Source of the DNA: a virus
Lineage: Duplodnaviria > Heunggongvirae > Uroviricota > Caudoviricetes
Direction: 5' to 3' (one strand)
Length of the DNA stretch: 64,000 bases
Virus record (IMG/VR): IMGVR_UViG_3300022187_000019
Shown: one piece after another, positions 5,525 through 5,566 of the stretch
Layout of the letters: the number at the start of each line of letters is the position of its first letter
Position numbering within the stretch: the first letter of the stretch is position 1
The notes under the pieces: generated by a model
Told to the model about the DNA's origin: nothing
Database searches by the model: none
The model's input: only the letters and a program-made list of their open reading frames with translations
Translations under genes and position numbers: made by a program

Positions 5525-5566
5525 CCCGGCGGAGCGGATTTGTCTCCTTGTTGTTACTCCGCCGGG
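5525..5566 (+). ncRNA. hairpin with a loop antisense to the conserved phage RBS/leader motif
   Basis: 8-bp stem CCCGGCGG/CCGCCGGG; loop TTTGTCTCCTTGTTG is the reverse complement of the recurring CAACAAGGAGACA leader. Confidence 0.4.

What the first reader, a model, noticed from the sequence alone, without database searches (positions are those of the whole stretch)
5525..5566. Hairpin loop antisense to the phage's conserved Shine-Dalgarno leader
An 8-bp GC stem (CCCGGCGG/CCGCCGGG) presents the 26-nt loop AGCGGATTTGTCTCCTTGTTGTTACT. Its core UUUGUCUCCUUGUUG is the exact reverse complement of CAACAAGGAGACA(A), the nearly invariant leader/RBS that precedes at least 15 genes on both strands of this element. 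It lies just downstream of a family promoter at 5446-5474 on the + strand and is not followed by a start codon. The ORF drawn across it (5325..5672, − strand) has no coding signature. This looks like a trans-acting anti-SD RNA that could shut off translation of the whole early-gene set in one step, or titrate a leader-binding factor.
Basis: inference. Interest (0 to 1): 0.7.

Follow-up and report, generated by a model that had tools for sequence, protein, structure and literature searches.

The report
Phage RNA hairpin displaying anti-ribosome-site loop
A strong hairpin in the untranslated leader of a phage's tmRNA operon displays a loop complementary to the ribosome-binding sites of the phage's own early genes. 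It is a second copy of a hairpin conserved across related phages, so it probably belongs to an untested RNA-based brake on translation.

Summary
The hairpin is real and stronger than described: a 14-bp stem (5521-5534/5557-5570) with a 22-nt loop, z = -5.65.

The "15 genes" claim holds only for the core. The full 13-mer CAACAAGGAGACA precedes 2 genes, plus 1 with a mismatch. The core GGAGACA sits at 17 gene starts.

The window is a Lacusarx-like sphingomonad phage. The hairpin (HP1) lies 40 nt downstream of a promoter conserved in relatives. It is inside the 5' leader of a non-coding operon: leader RNA, tRNA-like element, two-piece tmRNA, and further RNAs.

That operon ends with a second hairpin (HP2, 6753-6795) directly before the terminator. 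HP2's loop, GAUUGUCUGUCUCC, is antisense to the 3' half of the same leader.

HP2 occurs in at least 13 phage lineages, three of them cultured. Its stems covary and UGUCUCC is the only invariant block. A covariance model built from HP2 hairpins finds HP1 as the best other hit in the window (22.9 bits).

HP1 itself occurs only in this lineage. No expression data exist, and leader/loop co-occurrence across lineages is not clean.

The best reading is an anti-Shine-Dalgarno seed of a base-pairing RNA. This design is known from bacterial sRNAs (alpha-r14/NfeR1, RF02278) and would here be phage-borne and self-targeting.

The parts
5446..5474 (+). Sigma-70-type family promoter (TTGACG, 17 nt, TAGAGA) that drives the non-coding operon.
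   Evidence: Pattern scan of the window. The same arrangement occurs in Lacusarx L001:3746, L011:3180, L154 and L155 with conserved hexamers and variable spacers. Inferred promoter, with no transcript data.
5481..5491 (+). Conserved first transcribed bases, CATCGAGACGG (probable 5' end of the leader RNA).
   Evidence: Identical 11-mer 6-7 nt after the -10 element in W, Lacusarx and L011. CATCGG is seen in L154 and L155, and CATCGAG in L010 and L162.
5521..5570 (+). HP1, the hairpin of the finding. Arms are 5521-5534 and 5557-5570 (14 bp) and the loop is 5535-5556. The anti-SD core UGUCUCC is 5541-5547, and the 13-nt antisense match to the leader is 5541-5553.
   Evidence: Covariance model R1 hit at 5524-5567, 22.9 bits, E = 0.037.
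5568..5690 (+). Conserved structured RNA domain directly 3' of HP1. A long closing helix (AUCACUCGCAAUGCGAGACC with GGUUUCACAUUGCCAGUGAU) encloses hairpins that carry ACACU...AGUAGUG...GAGCUU.
   Evidence: RNAalifold on W, Lacusarx and L011 gives 38 pairs, 9 with compensatory change. No Rfam match.
5760..5884 (+). tRNA-like element: acceptor stem, D arm and T arm, with no proper anticodon stem and a long inserted arm. Probably a processing signal that releases the upstream leader RNA.
   Evidence: ARAGORN finds it only in intron mode. Rfam tRNA-Sec scores 19.1 bits, below threshold. It is conserved in Lacusarx. The processing role is inferred.
5922..6376 (+). Two-piece (permuted) alphaproteobacterial-type tmRNA gene.
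   Evidence: Rfam RF01849 at 68.8 bits and RF04321 at 79.6 bits, both above gathering score.
6467..6495 (+). Second family promoter (TTGACA, 17 nt, TATCTG), placed before a structured RNA with a T-arm-like hairpin (6587-6603).
   Evidence: The region 6377-6900 folds with z = -5.59.
6717..6745 (+). Promoter-like site (TTGACC, 17 nt, TATCAG) 7 nt before HP2. If active, HP2 plus the terminator would be an RNA of about 85 nt.
   Evidence: Erythrobacter phage XM05 has a family promoter about 20 nt before its HP2. This stretch can also fold as a hairpin, so its status is uncertain.
6753..6795 (+). HP2, the family-conserved hairpin. Arms are 6753-6760 and 6788-6795. The loop GAUUGUCUGUCUCCAAACACGGUGAAA is antisense to GGAGACAGACAAUC.
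   Evidence: (24.4 bits). The flank test against this phage's own leaders gives p = 0.002.
6798..6833 (+). Intrinsic terminator (GGCCCGG...CCGGGCC followed by UUUUCUUU) that ends the non-coding operon, 2 nt after HP2.
   Evidence: The same juxtaposition is seen in all HP2-bearing lineages.
16914..16926 (-). Predicted best target of HP1: the leader CAACAAGGAGACA-gac-ATG of a 94-aa gene, downstream of a family promoter.
63262..63274 (+). Predicted best target of HP1: the leader CAACAAGGAGACA-gac-ATG of a 67-aa gene. The neighbouring leader at 63940-63952 has one mismatch.
10744..10754 (+). Leader of the RtcB ligase gene, AAGGAGACAAA. It gives 11 nt of contiguous complementarity to the HP1 loop.

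Best explanation
HP1 is a stable stem-loop in the 5' leader of a phage non-coding RNA operon. The order is: promoter 5446-5474, leader RNA, tRNA-like element, two-piece tmRNA, further RNAs, HP2, terminator.

The HP1 loop exposes UGUCUCC(UU), an anti-Shine-Dalgarno (aSD) motif. HP1 is a lineage-specific second copy of HP2, a hairpin that Lacusarx-like phages carry just before the operon's terminator.

Most likely the leader fragment is cut off the precursor at the tRNA-like element. The HP1 loop then base-pairs with GGAGACA-type ribosome-binding sites. The best matches are the phage's own promoter-proximal leaders, CAACAAGGAGACAGAC(A)AUG. HP1 covers the 5' half of that leader and HP2 covers the 3' half.

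Pairing would occlude the ribosome-binding site and lower translation of those genes. Host mRNAs with similar sites might also be affected.

Shown:
- the hairpin itself;
- its family relationship to HP2;
- the complementarity;
- the conserved promoter and terminator context.

Inferred:
- transcription;
- processing;
- pairing in trans;
- the repressive outcome.
For: 1. The hairpin is far more stable than shuffles, and its loop is mostly unpaired.
2. GGAGACA marks 17 gene starts and only 6 other sites in the window. Two of those six are the antisense copies inside HP1 and HP2, both on the strand transcribed from the operon's promoters.
3. HP2 occurs 2-4 nt before the terminator in W, Lacusarx, L005, L006, L010, L024, L026, L157, L160, L161 and L162, and in the cultured Erythrobacter phages vB_EliS-L02 and XM05.
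4. In a 12-hairpin alignment, 98% of cells are paired and all 8 pairs show compensatory changes. The only invariant columns are TGTCTCC.
5. Model R1, built from 7 HP2 hairpins, scores HP1 at 22.9 bits. The next hit in the window scores 16.9.
6. Loop flanks extend the complementarity to the same phage's leaders: W HP2 p = 0.002, XM05 p = 0.003, W HP1 p = 0.05, L024 p = 0.07. Eleven of 16 W leaders pair with HP2 over at least 10 contiguous nt.
7. The promoter and start sequence are conserved in relatives. XM05 has a promoter about 20 nt before its HP2.
8. Conserved aSD motifs in hairpin loops with variable stems are an established design: NfeR1/alpha-r14 (PMC10746234) and the Burkholderia double-hairpin RNAs (PMC5688073). 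The RF02278 consensus begins with UGUCUCC and weakly matches HP2 plus the terminator (23.1 bits).
Against: - No transcript, processing or binding data exist.
- HP1 is found only in this phage. About 41 metagenome blocks carry the protein encoded next to HP1; in the five contigs compared, the 5325-6400 region is identical or differs at two positions outside HP1. Its loop therefore has no conservation or covariation record of its own.
- Other lineages with the same leader RNA carry unrelated hairpins at this position.
- Only 3 of 16 leaders pair with HP1 over at least 10 nt.
- Leader and loop co-occurrence is not clean. L160 keeps HP2 but shows no GGAGA-type RBS among 26 genes in 21 kb. The L154/L163 lineage lacks HP2 yet has 1-3 GGAGAC leaders.
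- The Lacusarx loop flanks do not extend the pairing (p = 0.64).
- RNAduplex energies against all start regions barely differ from coding controls in this GC-rich genome.
- In HP2 of W, L005 and L010, a GGAGA just upstream can pair with the loop in cis.
Confidence: 0.42

Rival explanations
1. HP1 is only a structural or processing hairpin in a variable part of the tmRNA-operon leader. It would stabilise the 5' end or guide RNase cleavage. Its loop sequence would be a passenger, copied from HP2 or from leader DNA, with no trans-acting role.
For: The position between the 5' hairpin and the long-helix domain holds unrelated hairpins of different number and length in Lacusarx, L011, L154 and L155. 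HP1 is confined to one lineage. The five contigs compared show no variation within HP1 that could reveal selection.
Against: The loop matches the leader over 13 nt and is kept unpaired. The hairpin fits the HP2 family model better than several genuine HP2 members do. A passenger sequence would not be expected to sit precisely in a loop closed by 14 bp.
Confidence: 0.27
2. The conserved UGUCUCC loop is a protein-recognition site, for example for a phage or host RNA-binding protein, an RNA chaperone or a processing enzyme. Its complementarity to the ribosome-binding site would be incidental, or would reflect mimicry of the 16S rRNA 3' end.
For: The 7-mer is invariant even in L160, where no matching leaders were seen in 21 kb. 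In Lacusarx, the flanks do not extend the pairing. The loop resembles the CCUCCUU tail of 16S rRNA (sequence, own knowledge).
Against: In most lineages the conserved block is 10 nt, GUCUGUCUCC, the exact complement of the leader consensus GGAGACAGAC. HP1 extends the match on the other side of the same leader. No candidate protein was identified.
Confidence: 0.15
3. The meaningful strand is the - strand. The loop would be a decayed or orphan copy of a promoter-leader cassette, either a fossil gene start or part of the 5' UTR of the neighbouring - strand gene (4467-5324).
For: On the - strand the loop reads as a perfect leader, CAACAAGGAGACA. A block of two - strand genes (4048-5324) was inserted next to this region relative to Lacusarx.
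Against: There is no family promoter upstream on the - strand and no start codon at RBS spacing. The surrounding sequence belongs to a + strand RNA whose structure is conserved in relatives. HP2, the sister element, lies where no - strand gene exists in any lineage and is followed by a + strand terminator. A fossil would not be framed by a 14-bp perfect stem.
Confidence: 0.1
4. Chance: a GC-rich inverted repeat that happens to enclose an SD-like antisense string.
For: GC-rich genomes give many short stems. A stem of at least 8 bp (G-U allowed) encloses 14% of random positions.
Against: A 14-bp stem has probability about 0.0003. The 13-mer match is expected about 0.002 times per window. Zero of 100 shuffles gave as many motif matches. 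A second antisense copy lies in the same operon.
Confidence: 0.02

Closest known systems
alpha-r14 family sRNAs (NfeR1) and AbcR1/2 of alpha-proteobacteria
   Same: These RNAs have several hairpins that each expose the same anti-Shine-Dalgarno motif in an unpaired region, while the stems differ in sequence. The motifs act redundantly by occluding ribosome-binding sites (PMC10746234, PMC8844928). HP1 and HP2 show this pattern within one phage, and HP2 shows it across phages.
   Different: The motif here is UGUCUCC, not CCUCCUCCC. The hairpins are encoded by a lytic-type phage, not a chromosome. HP1 is embedded in a tmRNA-operon leader, not in a discrete sRNA. The best targets are the element's own genes. 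There is no Rfam match and nothing has been tested experimentally.
Rfam RF02278, Betaproteobacteria 'toxic'/double-hairpin sRNAs (Burkholderia ncS03/05/27/62, bdhR1; related Bordetella S17)
   Same: The model consensus starts with UGUCUCC and ends in a terminator hairpin. [quoted passage not shown] HP2 plus the terminator has the same two-hairpin layout and matches the model weakly.
   Different: The score is 23.1 bits against a gathering score of 50, and no hit was found in five relatives. In RF02278 the motif is at the 5' end, whereas here it sits in a loop. The host clade differs. HP1 has no terminator and gives no hit.
T4 RegB endoribonuclease and RegA translational repressor
   Same: These are phage-encoded systems that switch off many early genes at once by acting on their Shine-Dalgarno or initiation regions (PMC3014915). 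The outcome proposed here is the same.
   Different: They are proteins that cut GGAG or bind the start region. The agent proposed here is an RNA acting by base pairing. There is no homology.
By-products of tRNA precursor processing that act as regulators (3' external transcribed spacer of leuZ in E. coli)
   Same: A spacer released from a stable-RNA precursor acts in trans by base pairing (own knowledge, not checked here). HP1 sits in such a spacer, upstream of a tRNA-like element and the tmRNA.
   Different: That spacer sponges sRNAs rather than blocking ribosome-binding sites. Release of the HP1 fragment is inferred only.

Membership tests
HP2-type anti-SD hairpin of Lacusarx-like phages (family defined here) | Hairpin of 7-10 GC-rich bp closing a 20-30 nt loop that contains UGUCUCC. 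| tested here: met
   HP1 has a 14-bp stem and a 22-nt loop containing UGUCUCC. R1 scores it at 22.9 bits, E = 0.037, above three training members.
HP2-type anti-SD hairpin of Lacusarx-like phages (family defined here) | Position 2-4 nt upstream of the intrinsic terminator that ends the tmRNA/ncRNA operon. | tested here: not met
   HP1 lies in the 5' leader, 1.2 kb upstream, and has no U-run after the stem. HP2 (6753-6795) occupies the canonical position.
HP2-type anti-SD hairpin of Lacusarx-like phages (family defined here) | Conservation across lineages with compensatory stem changes. | tested here: not met
   HP1 is absent from Lacusarx, L011, L154 and L155, and from all loci searched with R1. 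For HP2 itself this feature is met.
Rfam RF02278 (Betaproteobacteria toxic / double-hairpin sRNA) | Reaches the family's gathering score (50 bits). | tested here: not met
   HP2 plus the terminator scores 23.1 bits, E = 0.022. HP1 gives no hit at E <= 10. Five related loci give no hit.
Rfam RF02278 (Betaproteobacteria toxic / double-hairpin sRNA) | Unpaired CU-rich motif (consensus UGUCUCC) complementary to ribosome-binding sites. | tested here: met
   The identical 7-mer is present in the HP1 and HP2 loops. Its mean unpaired probability in HP1 is 0.78.
Rfam RF02278 (Betaproteobacteria toxic / double-hairpin sRNA) | Short independent transcript with its own promoter and terminator; growth effect on overexpression. 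| not testable with these tools
   Only promoter-like and terminator sequences can be seen.
alpha-r14 / NfeR1-type anti-SD sRNA | Repeated identical aSD motif in unpaired regions of hairpins whose stems differ. | tested here: met
   HP1 and HP2 share UGUCUCC and have different stems.
alpha-r14 / NfeR1-type anti-SD sRNA | Motif CCUCCUCCC and a sequence/structure match to the family models. | tested here: not met
   The motif differs, and no alpha-r14, AbcR or cuckoo model matched at E <= 10.
Intrinsic (Rho-independent) terminator | GC-rich stem, short loop, then a U-run. | tested here: not met
   The loop is 22 nt. The stem is followed by UAUCACUCG on the + strand and CAUCCGAUC on the - strand. 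The terminator scan did not list it.
tmRNA (RF01849 / RF04321) | Lies within the region matched by the tmRNA models. | tested here: not met
   The tmRNA models cover 5922-6376. HP1 is 350 nt upstream.
Protein-coding gene (ORF 5325-5672, - strand; ORFs 5428-5634 and 5474-5623, + strand) | Homologues, domain hits or a gene call. | tested here: not met
   No Pfam hit. Not called on five contigs. The region is conserved as blocks separated by length-variable segments in relatives, which is an RNA-like pattern.

The most novel reading that the evidence does not exclude
Lacusarx-like phages would carry an RNA-only, self-directed translational switch. Hairpin loops made from the tmRNA/ncRNA operon (HP2 in most lineages, plus HP1 in this one) would pair with the conserved leader CAACAAGGAGACAGAC(A)AUG that heads the promoter-proximal early genes. 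As the stable RNA accumulates, it would shut those genes off together. This would be an RNA counterpart of T4 RegA/RegB, produced as a by-product of tmRNA maturation. Host mRNAs with GGAGA-type sites might be hit as well.
Probability: 0.3. Interest if true: 0.8.

Novelty: new variant of a known kind. Interest (0 to 1): 0.6.

Why it matters
Lytic phages are known to time their gene expression with proteins: sigma factors, anti-sigma factors, and the RegA- and RegB-type factors.

A phage RNA that blocks the ribosome-binding sites of the phage's own early genes would add a different kind of switch. It would also give a function to the leader and trailer sequences of phage tmRNA/tRNA operons, which are usually ignored.

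The idea can be tested. Three cultured phages carry the conserved sister hairpin: Sphingobium phage Lacusarx and Erythrobacter phages vB_EliS-L02 and XM05. Neither the Lacusarx nor the vB_EliS-L02 genome paper mentions it.

If the loop instead binds a protein, the 7-nt motif is still a conserved and unexplained element of this phage group.

Tried and rejected
- **RNAduplex energies.** I scored both loops against 108 crude start regions, 234 coding controls and shuffled loops. The background in this 60% GC genome is so high that the test does not discriminate (HP1: 46% of start regions against 42% of controls at -12 kcal/mol or lower). My crude gene caller also missed small leader-bearing genes. 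I used contiguous-complementarity tests instead.
- **First attempt at that script** timed out.
- **Exact DNA patterns from the leader RNA.** They found only Lacusarx.
- **Single-protein locus search.** It found only distant relatives. The alignment-based searches worked.
- **MAFFT alignments of the hairpins.** They misplaced the core, so I used N-padded, hand-anchored rows. That alignment is therefore fitted to the structure.
- **Leader/loop co-occurrence across lineages.** Inconclusive, and not clean.
- **RF02278 membership.** Rejected on score.
- **Terminator, tmRNA part, coding ORF, - strand gene start.** Each was tested and rejected (see the membership rows).
- **16-nt exact repeat** of the left arm, 5516-5531, at 20831-20846 (-). 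It lies inside a Nudix-like coding sequence and is probably chance.
- **11-nt complementarity** of the HP1 3' arm to 6937-6947. This is at chance level (BLAST E = 0.73).
- **Near-identical copies of the phage.** They gave no variation in HP1.

Full report
**1. The observation**

The sequence at 5525-5566 is as described, but the helix is longer. GAUGCCCGGCGGAG (5521-5534) pairs with CUCCGCCGGGUAUC (5557-5570). That gives 14 bp and a 22-nt loop, CGGAUUUGUCUCCUUGUUGUUA.

- The 52-nt stretch folds at -29.4 kcal/mol against -15.0 +/- 2.5 for shuffles (z = -5.65).
- A stem this long encloses a random position of the window with probability about 0.0003.
- The exact 13-mer CAACAAGGAGACA occurs three times: antisense in the loop (5541-5553) and in front of two genes (16914-16926 -, 63262-63274 +). 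Four more sites carry 1-2 mismatches. In total there are 7 matches against 1.13 expected.
- So "nearly invariant before at least 15 genes" is true only of the core. GGAGACA lies at 17 gene starts and at 6 other places. AAGGAGACA lies at 9 gene starts plus the loop. GGAGACAGAC lies at 12 gene starts plus one other place.

**2. Context**

The window is a relative of Sphingobium phage Lacusarx. It has a 13-tRNA array and a two-piece alphaproteobacterial tmRNA at 5922-6376.

A family of promoter-leader cassettes heads many genes: TTGACC, 17 nt, TAGAAA, then acgaatca..., then (caacaa)GGAGACAgac(a)ATG. Lacusarx and Erythrobacter phage XM05 use the same leader. In Lacusarx, 15 of 98 CDS in 50 kb carry it. 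In XM05, 20 gene starts in 100 kb carry it.

One such promoter, at 5446-5474, points rightward into non-coding sequence. In Lacusarx, L011, L154 and L155 the same promoter has conserved hexamers and variable spacers. CATCGAGACGG follows it in W, Lacusarx and L011, and the shorter CATCGG in L154 and L155.

Downstream of that promoter come, in order:
- a 5' hairpin;
- a variable segment;
- a conserved domain closed by a helix of about 20 bp (38 predicted pairs, 9 of them compensatory);
- in W and Lacusarx, a tRNA-like element at 5760-5884;
- the tmRNA.

HP1 is the variable segment of this phage. The other four lineages have unrelated hairpins at that position.

No gene is called in this region on five contigs of the same phage. 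None of the ORFs across it has a Pfam hit.

**3. A second antisense leader copy, which is conserved**

Of the six GGAGACA sites that are not at gene starts, two lie in this non-coding operon. Both are antisense to its direction of transcription. The second is at 6761-6774, GAUUGUCUGUCUCC. That is the complement of GGAGACAGACAAUC, the 3' half of the leader consensus.

It sits in the loop of a hairpin (HP2, 6753-6760/6788-6795) that ends 2 nt before the intrinsic terminator at 6798-6833.

The same arrangement is found in these lineages:
- Lacusarx, L005, L006, L010 (= L020-23, 27), L024 and L026;
- L157, L160, L161 and L162;
- the cultured Erythrobacter phages vB_EliS-L02 and XM05.

In each case a hairpin with UGUCUCC in its loop lies 2-4 nt before the terminator that closes the tmRNA region.

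In a hand-anchored alignment of 12 hairpins, 98% of cells pair and all 8 pairs show compensatory changes. Slid controls give 28-52% pairing. The only invariant columns are TGTCTCC (7-sequence version). Because the alignment was anchored on the stems, these counts lean towards the structure.

Exceptions:
- L011/L164 has CCUCUCCC in the equivalent loop.
- L165 has CCUCCUCC before the terminator.
- The L154/L163 lineage has no such motif.

XM05 has a family promoter about 20 nt before its HP2. L010 and L162 have one about 130 nt before it, followed by CATCGAG. W has a promoter-like site 7 nt before HP2, at 6717-6745. HP2 plus the terminator therefore looks like the 3' module of a small RNA, or in some lineages the whole of one.

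**4. HP1 belongs to this family**

A covariance model built from seven HP2 hairpins was run over the whole window with filters off. It returns HP2 (24.4 bits) and then HP1 (5524-5567, 22.9 bits, E = 0.037). The next hit scores 16.9 bits.

HP1 scores above the training members from L026, L006 and Lacusarx. The 5' arm and the start of the loop are also similar in sequence: CCGGCGGAGcggAUUUGUCUCC in HP1 against CCGCCGGAG-AUUGUCUGUCUCC in HP2.

No second copy was found in about 460 kb of related loci. HP1 is therefore a lineage-specific extra copy.

**5. Do the loops fit the leaders beyond the core?**

I kept UGUCUCC fixed and shuffled the loop flanks.

| Loop | Mean contiguous extension against own GGAGACA leaders | Null | p |
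|---|---|---|---|
| W HP2 | 3.0 nt | 0.48 | 0.002 |
| XM05 HP2 | 1.7 nt | 0.53 | 0.003 |
| W HP1 | 1.9 nt | 0.84 | 0.05 |
| L024 HP2 | 1.71 nt | 0.55 | 0.07 |
| L026 HP2 | 1.57 nt | 0.82 | 0.13 |
| Lacusarx HP2 | 0.44 nt | 0.49 | 0.64 |

- Eleven of 16 W leaders pair with HP2 over at least 10 nt. Three pair with HP1 over at least 10 nt.
- In most lineages the conserved loop block is GUCUGUCUCC, the exact complement of GGAGACAGAC.
- HP1 instead extends to the 5' side (CAACAA). That leader variant is also seen in XM05, L024 and Lacusarx.
- Together the two loops tile CAACAAGGAGACAGACAAUG.
- These tests are not independent, because both loops and leaders are inherited.

A cruder co-occurrence test failed to be clean. 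L160 keeps HP2 but shows no GGAGA-type site among 26 genes. L163 lacks HP2 but has a few such sites. Duplex-energy scans were uninformative.

**6. Mechanism**

- It is part of the leader of a tmRNA operon.
- It duplicates a conserved element at the operon's 3' end.
- It matches only a subset of leaders at full length.

The transcription start near 5481, release at the tRNA-like element, pairing in trans and repression are all inferred.

The design has precedents. In NfeR1/alpha-r14, identical aSD motifs sit in the unpaired regions of hairpins with dissimilar stems and act redundantly. In the Burkholderia double-hairpin "toxic" RNAs, CU-rich unpaired stretches are antisense to ribosome-binding sites. 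Their Rfam consensus (RF02278) begins with UGUCUCC.

HP2 plus the terminator matches RF02278 at 23.1 bits against a gathering score of 50. Relatives do not match it. This is a resemblance in mechanism, not membership.

T4 RegB and RegA are protein systems with the proposed outcome.

Rivals:
- a purely structural or processing hairpin;
- a protein-binding loop;
- a - strand fossil leader;
- chance.

These are weighed in the rival entries. The - strand and chance readings are poorly supported.

**7. Novelty and verdict**

Neither the Lacusarx nor the vB_EliS-L02 genome paper mentions these elements. A literature search for phage-encoded anti-SD sRNAs found nothing equivalent.

I rate this as a new variant of a known kind. 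It is an aSD-loop riboregulator design, here phage-borne, attached to a tmRNA operon and aimed at the phage's own leader.

Interest is 0.6. The comparative signal, mainly at HP2, is solid and testable in cultured phages. HP1 itself rests on one lineage, and nothing has been shown experimentally.

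Noticed in passing
window 6753-6833 (+); also L001:5296-5375, L166:5533-5620, L167:2369-2450: A conserved hairpin with UGUCUCC in its loop lies directly before the terminator of the tmRNA region in at least 13 phage lineages. In some lineages it has its own promoter. It is a candidate double-hairpin sRNA and is not annotated in any record seen.
   Followed up: yes
window 5760-5884 (+); L001:4084-4200; L011:4120-4230: A tRNA-like element with an acceptor stem, a class-II-type D arm and a T arm, but no proper anticodon stem and a long inserted arm. 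ARAGORN calls it only in intron mode, as Cys(gca) with a 49-nt intron. Rfam tRNA-Sec scores 19 bits. It sits before the tmRNA in W and Lacusarx and after it in L011.
   Followed up: partly
window 5568-5690 (+); L001:3940-4082; L011:3340-3462; L154:6463-6600: A conserved structured RNA domain of unknown identity in the tmRNA-operon leader. A helix of about 20 bp, with compensatory changes in L011, encloses the conserved motifs ACACU, AGUAGUG and GAGCUU. There is no Rfam match.
   Followed up: partly
window 6467-6720 (+): A second family promoter (6467-6495) is followed by a highly structured RNA with a T-arm-like hairpin, GAGGGUUCGACUCCCUC (6587-6603). The region 6377-6900 folds with z = -5.6. 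L005, L010 and L011 also have T-arm-like hairpins after their tmRNAs.
   Followed up: no
window 6944-7401 (+): The HslV/proteasome-like gene is annotated as such in Erythrobacter phages XM05 and vB_EliS-L02. Its homologues begin ATG or TTG, then ACx-ACx-ATC (MTTI). In this phage the homologous first codon is ATC (6955-6957), preceded by GGAGAC at 6944-6949. In L161 it is ATA. This suggests a non-canonical start codon, or an upstream start with propeptide removal.
   Followed up: partly
L001:4230-4775 (Lacusarx gp192): An ORF annotated as an HNH endonuclease carries a LAGLIDADG-like motif (YLAGFLDGEG). It is inserted between the hairpin that precedes the tmRNA and the tmRNA acceptor piece. It is absent at the same spot in this window, so it looks like a free-standing homing endonuclease insertion.
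   Followed up: no
window 4048-5324 (-): Two - strand genes are inserted between the Gp77-like gene and the ncRNA promoter, relative to Lacusarx. One is 285 aa with a DGQHR motif and the other is 135 aa. Neither has a Pfam hit. No family promoter was found for them.
   Followed up: partly
window 6377-6463 (+): A long imperfect hairpin lies immediately after the tmRNA (CAGUUCAGAUGGGGGUCC...GGGCCUCCUUCUGAACUG). It is conserved in L154/L163 with different sequence.
   Followed up: no
window 5516-5531 (+) and 20831-20846 (-): A 16-nt exact repeat, GATCGGATGCCCGGCG, is shared between the left flank and arm of HP1 and the inside of a Nudix-like coding sequence (BLAST E = 8e-4). It is probably chance in a GC-rich genome.
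   Followed up: partly
L001:3795-3812; L155:2198-2215: In Lacusarx and L155, the leader RNA carries a small hairpin at roughly the HP1 position, GGAGG-N5-CCUCC(UCC). Here an SD-like and an anti-SD-like string pair with each other, so no free anti-SD loop is available.
   Followed up: no
L164 (= L011 contig) 5340-5385; L165:5540-5565: Two lineages have CCUCUCCC or CCUCCUCC instead of UGUCUCC in the stretch before the terminator. These are different anti-SD-like motifs at the same position. Their start sites in the available DNA are mostly GGGAGG or GGAGGA.
   Followed up: partly
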